DNA from: Escherichia coli
GTDB taxonomy: Bacteria; Pseudomonadota; Gammaproteobacteria; Enterobacterales; Enterobacteriaceae
Direction: 5' to 3' (one strand)
Assembly (NCBI RefSeq): GCF_022846255.1
Contig: NZ_AP025682.1
DNA: 64,000 nucleotides
A program made the translations under genes and the position numbers. Shown piece by piece: positions 5,064 to 60,712 of this stretch; position 1 is the first letter of the stretch, and each line of letters starts with the position of its first letter. Below the pieces are notes generated by a model. It was not told the DNA's origin. It did not search any database and saw only the letters and a list, made by a program, of their open reading frames with translations.

Positions 5064-5939
5064 ATGGACTTTTTTACGTTATTTTCACCGGATGGGGTCA
5101 TGCTGGAAACAAACGTGGTATGTATCGTTATCGCGTTAATGTTTCTTTATACCTTTGTGGGGATATGCGCGGGATTTGGCGGTGGTTTAACCACCATGCC
5201 GCTCGTCACGTTAATGCTCCCCGTAAAAATGGCAACTCCGCTCTCGGTGATTGTCGGCACCGCGACCGCCTTGTACGCCACCTGGCTGTCACGTAAAGAA
5301 ACGGATTGGCGATCGGCAATGGTACTGATTATTTTCTCGTTTCTGGGAATACCCGTCGGTTTATATGCGCTGTCGTATTTACCCGACCATTTTATGAAAG
5401 TGGGCTTAGGCGGATTCCTTATCCTGTACTCCTTTTACAGTATGTTTATTCCACGCCTGCCGATTTATGACCGTAGCTGGATCGCCGCACCTATCGGCGC
5501 CGTGGCAGGAGCGTTAGGGGCAGCATTTTCAACCAACGGACCGCCGATGGTTATCTACGGTATGCTGCGTAACTTAGGCCCGGCGGCATTTCGCGGCACT
5601 CTGAACGCTTTCTTCACCGCAAACAACATCGCGGTGATCGGCGGGCTGGCGACCAGCGGAATTTTGACTGTCTCTATCTTTAAACTGGTGCTGTTTTGTA
5701 TTCCCACCATGATCCTCGGTTCACTGGTTGGACAATATGTGCATAAACGCATTTCGGTCAAAGTGTTCCGTGTGATGGTCTTTTTATTGCTGATTGCCTC
5801 CGGTTCTATGTTGATAAAAGGCGCGCTGGGAATTCCCGCCGCTGCCGCACTTCTTCCTCCGTTTACCTTGTTAGTTATACTGCAACTGGCATTTGGTAAA
5901 AAAGTGGCGGCAATCCGTCGGGCGGAAGAAAGTAAATAA
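5064..5939 (+). CDS. TauE/SafE (TSUP) family integral membrane protein, putative sulfite/organosulfonate exporter
   Basis: 291 aa ORF, highly hydrophobic with ~8 predicted TM segments and two Gly-rich repeats (GFGGGLTTMP, GALGAAFSTNGPPM) typical of 4-toluene sulfonate uptake permease/TauE proteins; RBS AGGAAA 7 bp upstream of ATG; sits between yihR and yihQ. Confidence 0.7.
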   Translation: MDFFTLFSPDGVMLETNVVCIVIALMFLYTFVGICAGFGGGLTTMPLVTLMLPVKMATPLSVIVGTATALYATWLSRKETDWRSAMVLIIFSFLGIPVGLYALSYLPDHFMKVGLGGFLILYSFYSMFIPRLPIYDRSWIAAPIGAVAGALGAAFSTNGPPMVIYGMLRNLGPAAFRGTLNAFFTANNIAVIGGLATSGILTVSIFKLVLFCIPTMILGSLVGQYVHKRISVKVFRVMVFLLLIASGSMLIKGALGIPAAAALLPPFTLLVILQLAFGKKVAAIRRAEESK

Positions 5940-13643: not shown

Positions 13644-13794
13644 AACTTTGCCTCAGGCATTAGAAATAGCGCGTTATTGTACACGGATTAATCGCACTAC
13701 AAAACAGGATCACAAACATCCTCCGCAAACAAGTATTGCAGAGTCCCTTTGTGATCGCTTTCACGGAGCATAAAAAGGGTTATCCAAAGGTCAT

Positions 13795-13844
13795 TGCACC
13801 AATATGGTGCTTAATGTTCCCATTGAAGCACTATATTGGTGCAA
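13795..13844 (+). promoter_or_regulatory. NtrC (NRI) enhancer sites upstream of glnA
   Basis: Two dyads TGCACCAATATGGTGCT (13795-13811) and GCACTATATTGGTGCAA (13828-13844) matching NtrC consensus TGCACC-N5-GGTGCA. Confidence 0.7.
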
Positions 13845-18302: not shown

Positions 18303-18456
<154 letters not shown>

Positions 18457-20595: not shown

Positions 20596-20661
20596 AATGG
20601 TTCGTCTTTTAGCCGTTTTATTCAGTATAGATTTGCGGCGGAATCTAACAGAAAGCAAGCA

Positions 20662-20906
20662 AAGAAAAAAGGCGACAGATTACTCTGTCGCCTTTTTTCC
20701 TGACTCATAACCCTTAACGGGTCTTACAATCCTTGCAGGCCGCCAACACACCCTGTTTTTCCATTAGCCGGAACAATCCGTGTTGATTCCATTTCCATTT
20801 AATTACGTCTCCGGACGTTTATCTTCCTGACAATCCTCTGTCTTCGCCTCCTGGCGCTCCTGACCCTCATCCTGAGTCATTGTTCCTGTTAGCGTCCTCG
20901 CTCTAT
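20662..20906 (-). ncRNA. csrC: CsrC small RNA (CsrA-sequestering)
   Basis: Minus-strand sequence begins ATAGAGCGAGGACGCTAACAGGAACAATGACTCAGGATGAGGGTCAGGAGCGCCAGGAGG and contains multiple GGA motifs in predicted loops; ends at intrinsic terminator hairpin GGCGACAGAGTAATCTGTCGCC plus U-run. Confidence 0.8.
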
Positions 20907-21934: not shown

Positions 21935-22043
21935 TAAAAAACGCCCCAGTCATTACTGACTGGGGCGGCTAAAATATTCAGCCAAATCCGATTACGTGAA
22001 GTAAAAGGTCTGAAAGATAGAACATCTTACCTCTGTACCCTAC
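21935..22043 (-). ncRNA. spf: Spot 42 small RNA
   Basis: Minus-strand sequence GTAGGGTACAGAGGTAAGATGTTCTATCTTTCAGACCTTTTACTTCACGTAATCGGATTTGGCTGAATATTTTAGCCGCCCCAGTCAGTAATGACTGGGGCGTTTTTTATTGG, immediately downstream of polA; terminal hairpin plus U-run. Confidence 0.8.
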
Positions 22044-22190
22044 GCGACTAACTTTACTCTTTTTTGTTCAGTTCAGAAAGCATTTTTTGTAATTTTTTTT
22101 CAGTTGTTGCATAGGAATTTCTAATAGCCATCACAAAACGTGACAGCTTATGTTGCTTACTTACGAAAAAAGGGCATGTTCAGGCGAATC

Positions 22191-24977
22191 TTAGTGCGCC
22201 TGATCCCAGTTTTCGCCACTCCCCACTTCCACCAGTAACGGCACATCCAGACGGGTACAGTTTTCCATCAGTTGATGAATCTGCTTCGCGACGGCATCGA
22301 CATCATCTTTATGGACTTCAAATACCAGTTCATCGTGTACCTGCATGATCATACGCACACGCGGTTGCTCAGCCTGTAGCCACGCATCAACGGCAATCAT
22401 CGCCCGTTTGATAATGTCGGCGGCGGTTCCCTGCATTGGCGCGTTAATGGCTGCACGTTCAGCCGCTGCACGACGAGCACCATTGCTGGATTTGATATCC
22501 GGCAGATACAGACGGCGTCCGTCCAGCGTTTCAACGTAGCCCTGCTCTTTCGCCTGAGCACGGGTGCGTTCCATATACTCCAGCACGCCAGGGTAGCGTT
22601 CGAAGTAAAGGTCCATGTACTTCTGCGCTTCTTTACGTGGAATGTTCAATTGCCGCGCCAGACCGAAAGCACTCATGCCATAAATCAGACCAAAGTTGAT
22701 CGCTTTTGCACTACGACGTTGCTCGCTGGTGACGGTTTCCAGTGGCAAACCAAACACTTCTGCCGCCGTTGCACGGTGGATATCTTTTCCTTCCGCGAAT
22801 GCGGTCAGCAAGCCTTTGTCACGCGAGAGATGCGCCATAATGCGCAGTTCAATCTGCGAGTAGTCCGCTGAGACAATCACATAATCCTCTGGCGCAATAA
22901 ACGCCTGGCGGATACGGCGACCTTCTTCGTTACGCACCGGAATGTTTTGCAGGTTAGGATCGGTTGACGATAAACGTCCCGTTGCGGTTACTGCCTGGTG
23001 ATAAGAGGTATGTACACGCCCGGTTTTCGGGTTGATCATCAACGGCAGCTTGTCGGTGTAGGTCGATTTCAGCTTCGCCAGACCACGATACTCCAGAATC
23101 ACTTTTGGCAACGGATAGTCCAGCGCCAGTTCTTCCAGTACCTCTTCCGACGTTGACGGCGCGCCACCCGGAGTTTTCTTCAGCGGTTTAATGCCCTGTT
23201 TTTCAAACAGAATGGTTTGTAACTGCTTGGTGGAAGAAAGGTTAAATTCTTCACCTGCAATTTCATGCGCTTTCTTTTCCAGCTCAGCCAGACGCAAGGT
23301 GAGCTCTTCAGAGTGATTGTGCAGCACTTTCGGATCGATCTTCACACCGTTACGTTCAATGCGTGAAAGCACCGGCACCAGCGGCATTTCGATATTCTCG
23401 AAGACGTTCAACGGCCCTTTGTGTTTTTGCAGATCCGGCCACATTTTCAGATGCAACTGCAAGGTGACATCTGCATCTTCGGCGGCGTAACGCCCGGCTT
23501 CTTCGAGGGCAATCTGGTTAAAGGTCAGTTGATTTTTGCCTTTACCCGCAATCTCTTCAAAAGTGATGGTTTTGTGCTTCAACCAACGTTCCGCGAGGCT
23601 GTCCATATCGTGACGCCCGGCAACGCTATTGAGAATGTAGGACTCCAGCATGGTATCAAACGCAATCCCACGTAGTTCAATGCCGTAGTTCGCCAGAATA
23701 CCGCGATCGTATTTCAGGTTTTGCCCGACCTTCAGCGCCTTTTCATCTTCCAGCAGCGGTTTTAGCAACTCGAGTGCACGCTCGCGAGAGATTTGATCGG
23801 GCGCATCAAGATAATCATGAGCAACCGGAATATATGCCGCTACGCCTGGCTCGATAGCAAAAGAAAGCCCGACCAGGTTAGCAGAGATGTTATCAAGGCT
23901 GTCAGTTTCGGTATCAAATGCAAATACCGGCGCTTTTTCCAGCTTCGCAATCCACTCTTTCAGTGTTTCTTCATCAAGGATGGTGACGTAGTTGTCATAA
24001 GAAATCACCGTTGCCGTCACTTCTGGCGCTTCGTCTGCAACACTGGTTTCCTGCGGCCTGGCTGCGGGTTTCGCCCCTTTAGCCTGTAGCCATTTTCCCG
24101 CTTCGACATCAGCAGTCCAGCGTTTGAACTCATACTTTTTGAACAGCCCTAACAACTCTTCCGCCGCCGGTGGCTGCACTTCCAGTTGTTCACAGGTCAG
24201 CTCCAGTTCAACGTCGGTTTTAATCGTCGCCAGCTGGTATGAGAGATAAGCAACTTCTTTGTTTTGCTCGAGCTTCGCTGCCATTGTTTTCGCGCCACGG
24301 AAGCTCAACCCAGCAATTTTTTCTGGCTCGGCATACAGCGTATCCAGCCCGCCAAGACCTTGCAGCAATGCCTGCGCGGTTTTTTCACCGACGCCCGGTA
24401 CGCCAGGAATGTTATCAGAGGAGTCACCCATCAGCGCCAGGAAATCGATGATCAGTTCTGGCGGCACGCCGTACTTATTCACCACCTCTTCCGGTCCGAG
24501 GATGGTATTCGTCATGGTGTTGATAAGCGTGATATTTGGTGTCACCAGCTGCGCCATATCTTTATCGCCAGTGCTGATCAGCACCGGACGCCCGGCTTTT
24601 TCGGCTTCGCGCGCCAGAGTACCAATAACGTCGTCCGCTTCTACGCCAGAAACCGCCAGCAGCGGCAGTCCCATCGCTTTAACCATCGCGTGCAGAGGTT
24701 CGATTTGTGCTCGCAGATCGTCCGGCATTGGCGGGCGATGTGATTTGTAATGTTCAAACAGTTCATCACGAAAGGTTTTTCCCTTGGCGTCAAAGACCAC
24801 CGCTGCATGCGTCGGTTTATATTGCATGATCAGACTGCGCAGCATGTTGAGGACACCATACATCGCACCGGTCGGCTCGCCTGCGCTGTTAGTCAGCGGG
24901 GGAAACGCGTGATATGCGCGATAAAGGTAAGATGAACCATCTACAAGGATAAGTGGATTTTGGGGGATCTGAACCAT
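22191..24977 (-). CDS. polA: DNA polymerase I
   Basis: 928 aa; 5'-3' exonuclease, 3'-5' exonuclease and polymerase domains; [25 protein letters not shown]... Confidence 0.97.
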
Positions 24978-25102
24978 AATGTCCGTGCCTGTTTATCAGA
25001 TTATGGGTAAAGGATGCCACAGACAGGATGAAAACATGAGTTTTTCACCGCTTTTCGTGAAAATCTTTTGTAGATCTTCTGGATCGCTCGCAAATCGTCA
25101 TG

Positions 25103-25111
25103 TGGATAACT
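25103..25111. promoter_or_regulatory. DnaA box (TGTGGATAA) in polA/yihG divergent promoter region
   Basis: Perfect match to DnaA box consensus on reverse strand (TTATCCACA); second near-match TGTGGATAG at 25242-25250. Confidence 0.4.
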
Positions 25112-25340
25112 TTGTGCATAAATTATTTACATCGCTTTTAATTTATTATCATGCTTTTTACAGCATGGTGTTTGTCTTTGTTTTTCATGCAGTTAAAAAT
25201 AAAGCCATCCCTAATAATTGAGATAATGGGATTTTTTCTAATGTGGATAGATATGAATTATTTTTCTCCTTAAGGATCATCCGTTATTTGGGTCGTTTTC
25301 TGCTAAAATCTGCGCCTTGCGCTTCTTTAGCGCACTGTCT

Positions 25341-26273
25341 ATGGCTAACCTTTTGAATAAATTCATTATGACGAGAATACTCGCTGCGATAACCCTTTTG
25401 CTGAGTATCGTATTGACCATTTTGGTCACTATTTTTTGTTCCGTCCCGATCATCATTGCCGGGATTGTAAAACTATTGCTACCTGTGCCAGTCATTTGGC
25501 GAAAGGTTTCGCGTTTTTGTGATTTTATGATGTATTGCTGGTGTGAAGGTCTGGCGGTATTACTGCATCTGAACCCATACCTGCAATGGGAAGTTCACGG
25601 GCTGGAAGGGTTAAGTAAGAAGAACTGGTATCTGCTTATTTGTAACCACCGTAGTTGGGCAGATATTGTCGTACTGTGCGTGCTGTTTCGTAAGCACATT
25701 CCGATGAATAAATATTTCCTCAAGCAGCAGCTGGCCTGGGTGCCTTTTCTTGGCCTGGCGTGCTGGGCGCTGGATATGCCGTTTATGAAGCGTTATTCCC
25801 GCGCTTATTTATTACGTCATCCGGAGCGACGTGGTAAAGATGTCGAAACCACTCGGCGTTCTTGTGAAAAGTTTCGCCTGCATCCCACCACCATTGTCAA
25901 TTTCGTTGAAGGCTCCCGTTTCACGCAAGAAAAACATCAGCAAACCCACTCCACTTTTCAAAACTTGTTGCCACCAAAGGCGGCAGGCATTGCGATGGCG
26001 CTAAATGTACTGGGTAAACAATTCGATAAACTGCTTAATGTTACGCTGTGTTATCCGGACAATAACCGTCAGCCGTTCTTCGATATGTTAAGCGGTAAAC
26101 TGACGCGGATTGTCGTACATGTGGATTTACAGCCTATTGCCGATGAGTTACATGGCGACTACATCAATGACAAAAGCTTTAAGCGCCATTTTCAGCAATG
26201 GCTGAACTCACTGTGGCAGGAAAAAGACCGGCTTCTGACGTCGTTGATGTCATCACAGCGGCAGGACAAGTAA
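25341..26273 (+). CDS. yihG: PlsC-family acyltransferase YihG
   Basis: Start at [14 protein letters not shown] (310 aa); N-terminal TM segment; HxxxxD acyltransferase motif NHRSWAD. Confidence 0.85.
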
Positions 26274-31139: not shown

Positions 31140-31259
31140 ATGCCTGGCAGTTCCCTACTCTCGCATGGGGAGGCCCCACACTACCATCGGCGCTACGGCG
31201 TTTCACTTCTGAGTTCGGCATGGGGTCAGGTGGGACCACCGCGCTACGGCCGCCAGGCA
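31140..31259 (-). rRNA. rrfA: 5S ribosomal RNA
   Basis: 120 nt reverse complement of TGCCTGGCGGCCGTAGCGCGGTGGTCCCACCTGACCCCATGCCGAACTCAG...AGTAGGGAACTGCCAGGCAT. Confidence 0.95.
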
Positions 31260-31357
31260 AATTCTGTTTTATCAACACGTCTCGTTATGACCTGTCGATT
31301 TAATCTGTATCAGGCTGAAAATCTTCTCTCTATCCGCCAAAACATCTTCGGCGTTGT

Positions 31358-34262
<2,905 letters not shown>

Positions 34263-34445
34263 TCACAACCCGAAGATGTTTCTTGCGATTCATCATCGTG
34301 TTGCGAAAATTTGAGAGACTCACGAACAACTTTCGTTGTTCAGTGTTTCAATTTTCAGCTTGATCCAGATTTTTAAAGAGCAAAACTTCGCAGTGAACCT
34401 TTGCAGGTACACTCTGAAGTATTTTTTATTTAATCACTACAGAGA

Positions 34446-34521
34446 TGGTGGAGCTATGCGGGATCGAACCGCAGACCTCCTGCGTGCAAAGCAGGCGCTC
34501 TCCCAGCTGAGCTATAGCCCC
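34446..34521 (-). tRNA. alaT: tRNA-Ala (anticodon UGC)
   Basis: Reverse complement GGGGCTATAGCTCAGCTGGGAGAGCGCCTGCTTTGCACGCAGGAGGTCTGCGGTTCGATCCCGCATAGCTCCACCA. Confidence 0.95.
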
Positions 34522-34563
34522 ATAACATGTAGTTAAAACCTCTTCAAATTTGCGGTGCAAATT

Positions 34564-34640
<77 letters not shown>

Positions 34641-34708
34641 GTAGAGGTTTTACTGCTCATTTTCATCAGACAATCTGTGTGAGCACTGCAAAGTACGCTT
34701 CTTTAAGG

Positions 34709-36250
<1,542 letters not shown>

Positions 36251-36426
36251 AAAAGTTTGATGCTCAAAGAATTAAACTTCGTAATGAATTACGTGTTCAC
36301 TCTTGAGACTTGGTATTCATTTTCGTCTTTCGACGTTAAGAATCCGTATCTTCGAGTGCCCACACAGATTGTCTGATAAATTGTTAAAGAGCAGTGCCGC
36401 TTCGCTTTTTCTCAGCGGCGCGGGGT

Positions 36427-36460
36427 GTGCATAATACGCTTTCCCGCTACAGAGTCAAGC
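36427..36460 (-). promoter_or_regulatory. rRNA operon promoter P2
   Basis: Minus strand TTGACT (-35, 36453-36458) and TATTAT (-10, 36432-36437). Confidence 0.6.
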
Positions 36461-49723: not shown

Positions 49724-51966
<2,243 letters not shown>

Positions 51967-59947: not shown

Positions 59948-60712
59948 TTATTTCAGCAGACGACGCGCCGCTTCCACCACGATTTTCACCGCATGGCTTT
60001 CGGTTTGTTTCATCGTCTCAGCATTCGGGATCTCTTGCTGGGTGCGGTTAACGATAACCCCCGCTACCATACCGGCACGCAGGCCCTGACTTGCACACAT
60101 GGTCAGCAGGGTTGCAGATTCCATTTCATAGTTCATTACGCCCATCGCCTGCCACTCTTCCATAGAACCTTTAAAGTGACGAACTACGCGACCAGAGTAA
60201 GTATCGTAACGTTCCTGACCAGGGTAGAAGGTATCAGAAGAAGCTGTCACGCCAACGTGAGTCGTCGCGCCAATGGATTTCGCAGCTTCAACCAGCGCAG
60301 TCGTACATTCGAAATCAGCGACAGCCGGGAATTCCAGCGGTGCGAAGTGCAGGCTCGCACCATCCAGACGAACAGACGCCGTGGTAACCAGGACATCGCC
60401 AACATTAATATGCGGCTGAATAGCGCCCGTTGTGCCGATACGCAGGAAGGTGCGAATGCCCAGCTGTGCCAGCTCTTCAACAGCAATAGAGGTAGACGGG
60501 CCGCCGATACCGGTAGAGCAGACGATAACAGGTTTACCATCCAGCTCTGCACGCCAGGTGGTGAATTCGCGATGAGATGCCAGCTTAACCGGCTTATCCA
60601 TCAGCGCGGCGATCTTTTCCACACGATCCGGGTCGCCAGGGACGATGGCAAGCGTAGCCCCTTGTAAATCGTTTTTAGTGAGGCCGAGATGAAAAACATC
60701 AGACTTGGACAT
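59948..60712 (-). CDS. udp: uridine phosphorylase
   Basis: Start taken at [44 protein letters not shown]; PNP/UDP family. Confidence 0.95.

What the first reader, a model, noticed from the sequence alone, without database searches (positions are those of the whole stretch)
25103..25250. DnaA-box matches in the polA/yihG divergent promoter region
TGTGGATAA (perfect) at 25103-25111 and TGTGGATAG at 25242-25250 lie upstream of polA. A DnaA box in the polA promoter is consistent with reported growth-phase regulation of polA by DnaA.
Basis: partly seen in the sequence, partly recalled or inferred. Interest (0 to 1): 0.2.

Follow-up and report, generated by a model that had tools for sequence, protein, structure and literature searches.

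The report
Known DnaA operator upstream of polA
The flagged sequences are the published, ChIP-confirmed binding site of the replication initiator DnaA in front of the DNA polymerase I gene, so the finding is ordinary, although comparison across 80 species shows the site is part of a larger, rigidly spaced three-box module with an IHF-like bending site that I did not find described.

Summary
The perfect box TGTGGATAA is at 25101-25109, not 25103-25111.

Together these form the "double DnaA box" tTTATGCACAaagTTATCCACAt. It is listed letter for letter as a DnaA ChIP-seq peak upstream of polA in E. coli K-12, with 123-fold enrichment. The peak centre maps to window position 25112. DnaA stimulation of polA was reported in 1997.

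It lies 141-148 bp upstream of the consensus box (141-143 bp in 57 loci), in the same orientation, whatever gene lies upstream. A motif matching the IHF consensus sits at a fixed position between the boxes (window 25183-25195). GATC sites cluster beside both DnaA sites. The intervening sequence is otherwise unconserved.

The layout resembles datA (double box, IHF site, third box). I infer an IHF-folded DnaA complex that controls polA. IHF binding, the transcription start and the function of the distal box are untested.

The parts
25101..25109 (-). Proximal DnaA box TTATCCACA, a perfect consensus. It lies 124-132 nt upstream of the polA ATG.
   Evidence: It is part of the published ChIP-seq site. 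It is invariant in 61 of 63 module-bearing loci; the two Budvicia loci have TTATCAACA.
25113..25121 (-). Upstream half of the double DnaA box, TTATGCACA (fits TTWTNCACA). It is separated from the proximal box by the 3-bp spacer AAG at 25110-25112.
   Evidence: The 21-mer TTATGCACAaagTTATCCACA equals the polA entry of Table 1 in PMC11317965. Across taxa the last four bases of this half ((C/A)ACA) and the spacer (A/G)A(G/C) are conserved, while the first five bases vary.
25242..25250 (-). Distal DnaA box CTATCCACA (8 of 9; position 1 is not T). It lies 141 bp upstream of the proximal box, in the same orientation.
   Evidence: It is conserved as nTATCCACA, TT(T/G)TCCACA or a close variant in 63 of 80 polA loci. 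The start-to-start spacing is 141 (15 sequences), 142 (39), 143 (3), 145 (4), 146 (1) and 148 (2), counting the window. A 30-mer around it is identical over the aligned part in 5410 of 5423 E. coli genomes.
25183..25195 (-). IHF-consensus-like motif TAACTGCATGAAA. It has 2 mismatches to YAANNNNTTGATW, the complement of the IHF consensus WATCAANNNNTTR (given as WATCARnnnnTTR in PMC8407004). It lies midway between the distal box and the double box.
   Evidence: Conserved columns are TAA at 25195-25193 and TGA at 25187-25185. At 86-88 nt upstream of the proximal box, 54 of 57 loci have at most 2 mismatches and 13 are perfect. Other offsets average 0.94 loci, with a maximum of 4. The consensus is taken from PMC8407004. 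IHF binding itself was not tested.
25072..25085 (.). Pair of Dam sites: GATC at 25073-25076 (within AGATCT, 25072-25077) and at 25082-25085. They lie 24 and 33 nt downstream of the proximal box start.
   Evidence: Across loci, GATC is 4.5-fold enriched in the module (174 observed, 39 expected). The sites concentrate just downstream of each DnaA site, with peaks at +13, +24/25 and +34 from the proximal box and at +15, +26 and +46 from the distal box.
25011..25040 (-). Inferred polA core promoter. It has a -35-like CTCATG (25035-25040), an 18-nt spacer and an extended -10 TGgCATCCT (25011-19). The predicted start is near 25004.
   Evidence: TGGCATnCT is invariant in all but two of the module-bearing taxa and mostly lies 36-55 nt before the ATG. 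Photobacterium and Grimontia have TTAACA 17 nt upstream of the CAT(T/C)CT hexamer. This is inference only. No start-site data could be retrieved, and the consensus promoter scan found nothing.

Best explanation
This is the DnaA-dependent upstream control region of polA.

Shown by published work and matched here: DnaA occupies the double box TTATGCACA-aag-TTATCCACA (window 25121-25101, polA strand) in vivo, and DnaA is reported to stimulate polA transcription, notably in stationary phase.

Shown here by comparison of 80 loci: the double box is one end of a conserved module that travels with polA. The module has these parts, in order:
- a third DnaA box in the same orientation, 141-143 bp upstream;
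- an IHF-consensus-like site at a fixed position between them, 55-56 nt from the distal box and 86-87 nt from the proximal box;
- GATC clusters flanking both DnaA sites;
- a conserved extended -10-like element about 90 bp downstream.

Inferred: IHF bends the AT-rich spacer so that DnaA on the distal box contacts the DnaA pair on the double box. This would form a cooperative higher-order complex, as proposed for datA and the left half of oriC. The complex would make polA expression respond to the amount or nucleotide state of DnaA. Dam/SeqA acting on the hemimethylated GATC pairs, or low-affinity ATP-DnaA sites containing GATC, would add dependence on passage of the replication fork.
For: - Identity with the ChIP-seq site: sequence and coordinate match, 123-fold enrichment.
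- Literature on polA activation by DnaA.
- Non-random arrangement.
- Conservation of all three boxes with spacing 141 (15 sequences), 142 (39) and 143 (3), while the inter-box sequence is saturated: median ungapped identity 0.34, and only the motif columns carry information.
- An IHF-like motif at a fixed offset in 54 of 57 loci, against about 1 at other offsets, with 13 perfect matches. The conserved positions are the CA and TT positions that the published IHF consensus stresses.
- In Pseudoalteromonas and Parashewanella the central IHF consensus is present in the flipped orientation. In Mangrovibacter the segment between the IHF-like site and the double box is about 10 bp shorter.
- The upstream neighbour gene varies (yihG, dsbA, elbB-like, cytochrome c, others) while the module stays with polA.
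- GATC is enriched 174 against 39 expected, in two zones.
- datA in MG1655 has the same logic and the same relative orientations: double box 7+2, then TAACCTATTGATA, then box 3. The review states that IHF looping between boxes 2 and 3 is the key step at datA and that spacing matters there.
- No RNA family match and no consensus RNA structure on either strand.
Against: - IHF occupancy at this site is not documented in anything I could read. The E. coli copy has 2 mismatches to the core consensus.
- The strong ChIP signal needs no distal box. purH has an equally strong peak (124-fold) with a double box only.
- No separate ChIP peak was called at the distal box.
- The transcription start is inferred, not measured. 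If it is right, the DnaA sites lie about 100 bp upstream of it, an unusual position for a sigma-70 activator. The activation mechanism of DnaA is described as poorly understood.
- The helical-phasing test between the double box and the promoter element was inconclusive.
- I could not read the primary paper on polA activation.
Confidence: 0.6

Rival explanations
1. Only the double box matters. It is a self-sufficient high-affinity DnaA site that activates polA. The distal box and the central motif are separate elements (for example a weak titration site and an unrelated AT-rich protein site) with no physical coupling.
For: The ChIP study shows that double boxes alone predict binding, and the purH double box gives equal enrichment without a distal box or IHF-like site. 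No separate peak was called at the distal box.
Against: Uncoupled elements would not be expected to keep a 141-143 bp spacing and a fixed central motif across Enterobacterales and Vibrionaceae, or a similar tripartite layout in Alteromonadales-type taxa, while the sequence between them is randomised.
Confidence: 0.2
2. The module is primarily a DnaA-activity control locus: datA-like ATP-DnaA hydrolysis, or a dedicated titration site close to oriC. Its position next to polA is incidental, as DARS1 sits by uvrB and DARS2 by mutH.
For: It has datA-like composition and orientation: double box, IHF consensus, third box. Its ChIP enrichment is among the highest in the genome. polA lies in the DnaA-box-rich region around oriC.
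Against: The distances differ from datA: 55 and 74-86 nt against 65 and 97 nt. There is no counterpart of datA box 4. All boxes are head-to-tail, so the head-to-head DARS core is absent. The module is kept at a fairly constant distance from a conserved promoter-like element of polA, which points to cis-regulation. No functional data exist.
Confidence: 0.12
3. The distal box serves the divergent gene yihG (a divergent-promoter operator), as the finding's title implies.
For: In E. coli the distal box lies 91 bp upstream of the yihG ATG.
Against: The same box, at the same distance from the double box, is present where the upstream gene is dsbA (co-directional), an elbB-like gene, a cytochrome c gene, a yhhQ-like gene or a GNAT gene. 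The promoter scan found no yihG promoter there.
Confidence: 0.05
4. The matches are chance occurrences in AT-rich intergenic DNA.
For: A single perfect box is expected 0.43 times per 64 kb, and strict-consensus matches in the window equal expectation: 5 against 5.0.
Against: The tandem pair occurred in 0 of 1500 simulated windows. There is also the published ChIP occupancy and conservation across three orders.
Confidence: 0.01

Closest known systems
polA DnaA site of E. coli K-12 (Quinones et al. 1997; ChIP-seq 'double DnaA box', PMC11317965)
   Same: Identical sequence and position: tTTATGCACAaagTTATCCACAt. The peak at 4046831 maps to window 25112.
   Different: Nothing differs for the double box. 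The published descriptions I could read mention neither the distal box, nor an IHF-like site, nor the cross-order conservation.
nrdAB upstream double DnaA box
   Same: It uses nearly the same two 9-mers with the same 3-bp spacer, in swapped order: gTTATCCACAaagTTATGCACTt. nrdA is also described as positively regulated by DnaA, and binding there is cooperative and lost on mutating either box.
   Different: Its ChIP enrichment is lower (14-fold against 123-fold). I did not examine whether it has a distal box or an IHF-like site.
datA (the locus for DnaA-ATP hydrolysis, DDAH)
   Same: It has a double box (7+2, spacer gag), an IHF consensus (TAACCTATTGATA) and a further box (3), all in the same relative orientation as in the polA module. 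Spacing between the IHF site and the boxes is functionally important there.
   Different: In datA the double box lies before the YAANNNNTTGATW motif and the single box after it. Upstream of polA the order is reversed. Distances are 65 and 97 nt against 55 and 74-86 nt. datA has an inverted box 4. datA is not a promoter element. No hydrolysis activity is known for the polA region.
oriC left half (R1, IHF site, R5M/tau/I array) and the dnaA promoter
   Same: A high-affinity box is paired with an IHF bend, DnaA sites are head-to-tail, and there is dense GATC for SeqA sequestration.
   Different: No unwinding element or long array of low-affinity sites was shown here. The E. coli copy has only two GATC sites in the module.
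DARS1 and DARS2
   Same: They are DnaA-box clusters lying next to DNA-repair genes (uvrB, mutH). DARS2 uses IHF.
   Different: The defining head-to-head boxes I and II are absent. All three polA boxes point the same way.

Membership tests
High-affinity (R-type) DnaA box | 9-mer matching TTWTNCACA | tested here: met
   25101-25109 (TTATCCACA) and 25113-25121 (TTATGCACA) match. The distal box CTATCCACA fails at position 1 and matches only 8 of 9. The same 9-mer is listed as half of a DARS2 double box.
High-affinity (R-type) DnaA box | DnaA occupancy in vivo | tested here: met
   I did not measure this. The published ChIP-seq peak (123-fold) was mapped onto the window: 4046831 corresponds to 25112, and the listed 23-mer is identical. 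Resolution does not separate the two halves and says nothing about the distal box.
Double DnaA box (PMC11317965) | Two boxes in the same orientation separated by 2 or 3 bp | tested here: met
   There is a 3-bp spacer AAG and both boxes are on the minus strand. The arrangement is conserved in all 63 module-bearing loci.
DnaA-regulated promoter (activation of polA) | Change of polA transcription when DnaA or the box is altered | not testable with these tools
   This rests on Quinones et al. 1997 as cited. The primary paper is not held.
datA-type DnaA-IHF locus | IHF-binding sequence between essential DnaA boxes | tested here: inconclusive
   A consensus-like motif sits at a fixed position in 54 of 57 loci and is perfect in 13. 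The E. coli copy has 2 mismatches. No binding data were retrievable.
datA-type DnaA-IHF locus | The same box and IHF-site geometry as datA | tested here: not met
   The relative orientations are the same, but the distances differ (55 and 74-86 nt against 65 and 97 nt), the order of double and single box is reversed, and there is no box 4 equivalent.
datA-type DnaA-IHF locus | IHF-dependent stimulation of DnaA-ATP hydrolysis | not testable with these tools
   This needs the biochemical DDAH assay.
DARS (DnaA-reactivating sequence) | [quoted passage not shown] | tested here: not met
   All three boxes are head-to-tail on the polA strand. The requirement is stated.
SeqA/Dam-sequestered regulatory region | Two or more closely spaced GATC sites | tested here: met
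   GATC lies at 25073 and 25082, 9 bp apart. Across loci there are 174 against 39 expected, with preferred positions. Hemimethylation and SeqA binding cannot be tested here.
Structured RNA or small protein gene in the spacer | Rfam match, conserved base pairs, or a conserved reading frame | tested here: not met
   There is no Rfam match at E-value up to 1. RNAalifold gives 0 pairs on either strand. Spacer lengths differ by single nucleotides and the sequence is unconserved.

The most novel reading that the evidence does not exclude
The polA upstream region would be a fourth chromosomal DnaA-IHF nucleoprotein locus, alongside oriC, datA and DARS2. It would be an IHF-folded three-box DnaA complex, conserved with near-invariant geometry across Enterobacterales and Vibrionaceae, with variants in Alteromonadales-type taxa. 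It would not only tune polA but also act on DnaA itself, either by datA-like hydrolysis of DnaA-ATP or by timed titration close to oriC. This would link the supply of the Okazaki-fragment-processing polymerase to the initiator cycle. A weaker form is more likely, at roughly 0.4: the IHF-dependent loop is required for DnaA control of polA but has no effect on DnaA activity.
Probability: 0.12. Interest if true: 0.7.

Novelty: already known. Interest (0 to 1): 0.33.

Why it matters
The flagged feature is a textbook-level regulatory site, so it adds nothing as it stands. It does show that the first-stage reader can recognise real DnaA operators from sequence alone.

The comparative result is the part worth keeping. 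The mechanism by which DnaA activates transcription is described as poorly understood. Here is a natural case in which a strongly bound double box is embedded in a rigid, deeply conserved architecture with an IHF-like site and a third box. That gives a concrete, testable model of looped, cooperative DnaA-IHF assembly with Dam-site coupling.

It also gives a short list of point and spacing mutations that would test the model. If the module resembles datA in function as well as in layout, it would bear on the open question of how DnaA activity is still controlled when the known extrinsic regulators are removed.

Tried and rejected
- RNA element in the spacer: no Rfam match at E-value up to 1 and no consensus structure on either strand. 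Rejected.
- Small ORF in the spacer: spacer lengths vary by 1 nt and the sequence is saturated. Rejected.
- Distal box as a yihG operator: rejected because the neighbour genes vary.
- A promoter with TTGCGA (25088-25093) as -35, directly after the double box: no acceptable -10 follows in E. coli or its relatives (reading). The scan tool found no sigma-70 consensus promoter at all. Set aside in favour of the conserved extended -10-like TGGCATnCT.
- Reading the conserved TGGCATCCTTTA block as a sigma-54, sigma-E or sigma-32 promoter, a LexA box or an inverted DnaA box: the spacing or the invariant positions do not fit (inspection).
- Helical phasing between the double box and TGGCAT: the distances cluster at 90-92, 79-83, 71-72 and 58 nt, but the Rayleigh statistic is no better at 10.5 bp than at other periods. 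Inconclusive.
- Interpreting the periodic GATC sites as oriC-type I or tau low-affinity DnaA sites rather than SeqA sites: the register fits after the proximal box (13, 24, 35) but not after the distal box, and the flanks are not box-like in E. coli. Unresolved.
- IHF occupancy data for the site: nothing in the main texts or held supplements of four IHF genome-wide studies.
- Measured polA start site: three attempts failed.
- Whether strong double boxes in general carry the same architecture: purH does not.
- The primary paper (PMID 9106210) is not held.

Full report
**Observation.** The window is E. coli DNA. polA is on the minus strand (22191-24977, ATG at 24977). yihG diverges from it on the plus strand (ATG at 25341). 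RefSeq annotates both genes, and the 501-nt region is present in 5425 of 5426 complete E. coli genomes.

TGTGGATAG is exactly at 25242-25250. It is 3 bp from the first and in the same orientation.

A lone perfect box is expected 0.43 times per 64 kb, and the window's 5 strict matches equal expectation. The arrangement is not chance. A tandem strict pair arose in 0 of 1500 simulated windows and in 2 of 200,000 simulated intergenic regions. Three same-strand boxes arose in 7 of 200,000.

**What is already known.** On the polA strand the pair reads tTTATGCACAaagTTATCCACAt. This 23-mer is printed letter for letter in Table 1 of the 2024 E. coli DnaA ChIP-seq study as the "double DnaA box" of the polA peak (coordinate 4046831, 123-fold over control). 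The table's footnote cites NC_000913.2, but the coordinates fit NC_000913.3, where polA starts at 4046966.

The window is colinear with that record (coordinate = 4071943 minus window position). There are 5 mismatches in 801 nt and none touches a motif. The peak centre is therefore window 25112, the spacer of the double box.

That study shows, by mutating the analogous purH site, that DnaA binds in vivo mainly to pairs of boxes 2-3 bp apart. It lists polA among previously described targets. Three papers attribute DnaA stimulation of polA, in stationary phase, to Quinones et al. 1997. I could not read that paper.

The core finding is already known.

**What the surroundings show.** I fetched 80 polA loci, one per species, using the PolA N-terminus as query.
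- In 63 of them a consensus box upstream of polA has a partner box 141-148 bp further upstream in the same orientation. Counting the window, the spacings are 141 (15 sequences), 142 (39), 143 (3), 145 (4), 146 (1) and 148 (2).
- These loci cover Enterobacterales, Vibrionaceae, Plesiomonas, Ferrimonas, Aliidiomarina, and Arsukibacterium, Rheinheimera and Alishewanella.
- The distance to the polA ATG ranges from 109 to 239 nt, yet the box-to-box distance barely moves.
It appears as ATATCCACA or CTATCCACA in most Enterobacterales and as TTTTCCACA or TTGTCCACA in the Vibrionaceae.

An alignment anchored on the proximal box shows information only at three places:
- the distal box;
- the double box with its spacer (A/G)A(G/C);
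- a central motif, TAA-N5-TGA-WW.

The remaining inter-box sequence is saturated. Median ungapped identity is 0.34 and AT content is 72%.

The central motif matches the IHF consensus read on the complementary strand: YAANNNNTTGATW, from WATCAANNNNTTR (WATCARnnnnTTR as quoted in PMC8407004).
- At 86-88 nt upstream of the proximal box, 54 of 57 loci have at most 2 mismatches and 13 are perfect. Any other offset averages 0.94 loci, with a maximum of 4.
- The E. coli copy is TAACTGCATGAAA at 25183-25195, with 2 mismatches.
- Pseudoalteromonas and Parashewanella have a central IHF consensus in the flipped orientation.
- Mangrovibacter has lost about 10 bp between the motif and the double box.

**Association with polA.** The upstream neighbour differs between taxa:
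- divergent yihG in Enterobacteriaceae, Serratia, Hafnia, Edwardsiella and Budvicia;
- co-directional dsbA in Dickeya, Providencia and Photorhabdus;
- an elbB-like gene in Photobacterium, Grimontia, Ferrimonas, Pseudoalteromonas and Parashewanella;
- a cytochrome c gene in Arsukibacterium and Rheinheimera;
- other genes in Aliivibrio and Vibrio.

So the module belongs to polA, not to yihG. The Pasteurellaceae loci and two symbiont-like genomes lack the whole module, including the promoter-like element described below.

**GATC sites.** Across the 64 sequences, GATC occurs 174 times in the module against 39 expected. The sites fall in two zones, just downstream of the distal box and just downstream of the proximal box. 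Preferred positions are +15, +26 and +46 from the distal box and +13, +24/25 and +34 from the proximal box.

E. coli has GATC at 25073 (inside AGATCT) and at 25082. This pattern fits SeqA binding to hemimethylated pairs. It could also reflect GATC-containing low-affinity DnaA sites like those of oriC. I could not separate the two.

**Promoter.** No consensus sigma-70 promoter is found, and I could not retrieve measured start sites. The block TGGCATnCT is invariant in all but two of the module-bearing taxa and usually lies 36-55 nt before the ATG.

It reads as an extended -10: TG, one base, then CATnCT, with the critical A and T kept. A weak -35-like (T/C)TCATG lies 18 nt upstream in Enterobacteriaceae, and TTAACA lies 17 nt upstream in Photobacterium and Grimontia.

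In the window this is 25011-25019, predicting a start near 25004. On that inference the double box lies at about -97 to -117, the IHF-like site at about -179 to -191, and the distal box at about -238 to -246. A test for helical phasing between the double box and this element was inconclusive.

**Mechanism.** Established: DnaA binds the double box in vivo, and polA is reported as DnaA-activated.

Inferred: IHF bends the spacer and brings distal-box DnaA to the double-box pair, giving a cooperative complex. The GATC pairs add replication-coupled control.

The closest structural parallel is datA. In MG1655 it has the double box 7+2 (TTGTAAACAgagTTATCCACA), then TAACCTATTGATA, then box 3, all in the same relative orientation. 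IHF-driven looping between boxes and the importance of spacing are stated for datA in the review.

The parallel is not identity:
- the distances differ (65 and 97 nt against 55 and 74-86 nt);
- the order of double and single box is reversed;
- datA box 4 has no counterpart.

DARS membership fails, because the defining head-to-head boxes are absent.

The nrdAB site is the closest regulatory relative. It uses nearly the same two 9-mers and spacer in swapped order.

The purH double box binds equally strongly and has no distal box or IHF-like site. The extra architecture is therefore not needed for strong binding as such. This is the main argument for the rival view that only the double box matters.

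**Alternatives rejected.** There is no Rfam match and no consensus RNA structure on either strand. A coding explanation does not fit, because spacer lengths differ by single nucleotides and the sequence is unconserved.

**Literature.** I found no description of the distal box, the IHF-like site or the cross-order conservation in the searchable library. Subscription-journal papers, including the 1997 study, are not covered.

**Verdict.** The finding is a correct recognition of a known, experimentally verified DnaA operator. It has a 2-base coordinate slip and omits one half-site. It deserves a low score as a discovery. The conserved three-box, IHF-like, GATC-flanked module is a modest but concrete addition that can be tested directly.

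Noticed in passing
window 25008-25022 (minus strand): The block CTGTGGCATCCTTTA, with core TGGCATnCT, is invariant upstream of polA in Enterobacterales, Vibrionaceae and Alteromonadales-type taxa. It is absent from Pasteurellaceae. I read it as an extended -10 element, but its invariance at non-promoter positions (the G and C around the hexamer) is unexplained.
   Followed up: partly
window 25147-25170 (plus strand): A terminator-like hairpin, TATCATGCTTTTTACAGCATGGTG followed by a T-rich tail, lies between the IHF-like site and the double box. It is present only in Escherichia and not in other genera, so it is probably incidental.
   Followed up: partly
L053, L055, L058, L076 (Arsukibacterium, Rheinheimera), about 35-57 nt after the distal box: In this clade the spacing is 145-146 bp, there are no GATC sites in the module, and the spacer carries an inverted repeat AAGGG-N12-CCCTT instead of the enterobacterial IHF-like motif. 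A WATCAA-type match (AATCATGAAGTTA) in the flipped orientation follows in L053.
   Followed up: partly
L051, L057, L061, L065, L069, L073, L074, L078, L048 (Vibrionaceae, Plesiomonas), first 50 nt after the distal box: These loci have very dense GATC arrays with roughly 11-bp register, for example CCACA-N5-TGATCA-N6-GGATC. Grimontia (L057) has five GATC sites in 25 nt. The pattern recalls sequestered regions such as oriC and the dnaA promoter.
   Followed up: partly
window 5738-5746, 36426-36434, 60615-60623: Three further single strict-consensus DnaA boxes (TTATGCACA twice, TTTTCCACA once) occur in the window. Their number is at chance level, and none is paired. The box at 36426 lies about 180 nt upstream of the 16S rRNA gene of the rrn operon.
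   Followed up: no
window 21935-22053, 20653-20906, 31142-36250, 51361-51612, 13725-13832, 18328-18399: Rfam finds Spot 42 directly downstream of polA, CsrC, a complete rrn operon with two tRNAs, and the sRNA families Erse, ES222 and naRNA4. This fits the E. coli region around polA.
   Followed up: no
PMC11317965 Table 1 footnote: The ChIP-seq table says its coordinates are NC_000913.2, but they fit NC_000913.3 (polA ATG at 4046966, peak 135 bp upstream). Anyone reusing the table should be aware of this.
   Followed up: yes
E. coli genome collection: Two of about 5400 matches to the polA upstream region are on records labelled as plasmids. I did not examine them.
   Followed up: no
Photorhabdus, dsbA-polA interval (PMC7554251): A paper reports a temperature-restriction operon inserted between dsbA and polA. 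Its outermost promoter overlaps the predicted polA promoter on the opposite strand. The Photorhabdus loci here (L036, L038) keep the full DnaA/IHF-like module.
   Followed up: no
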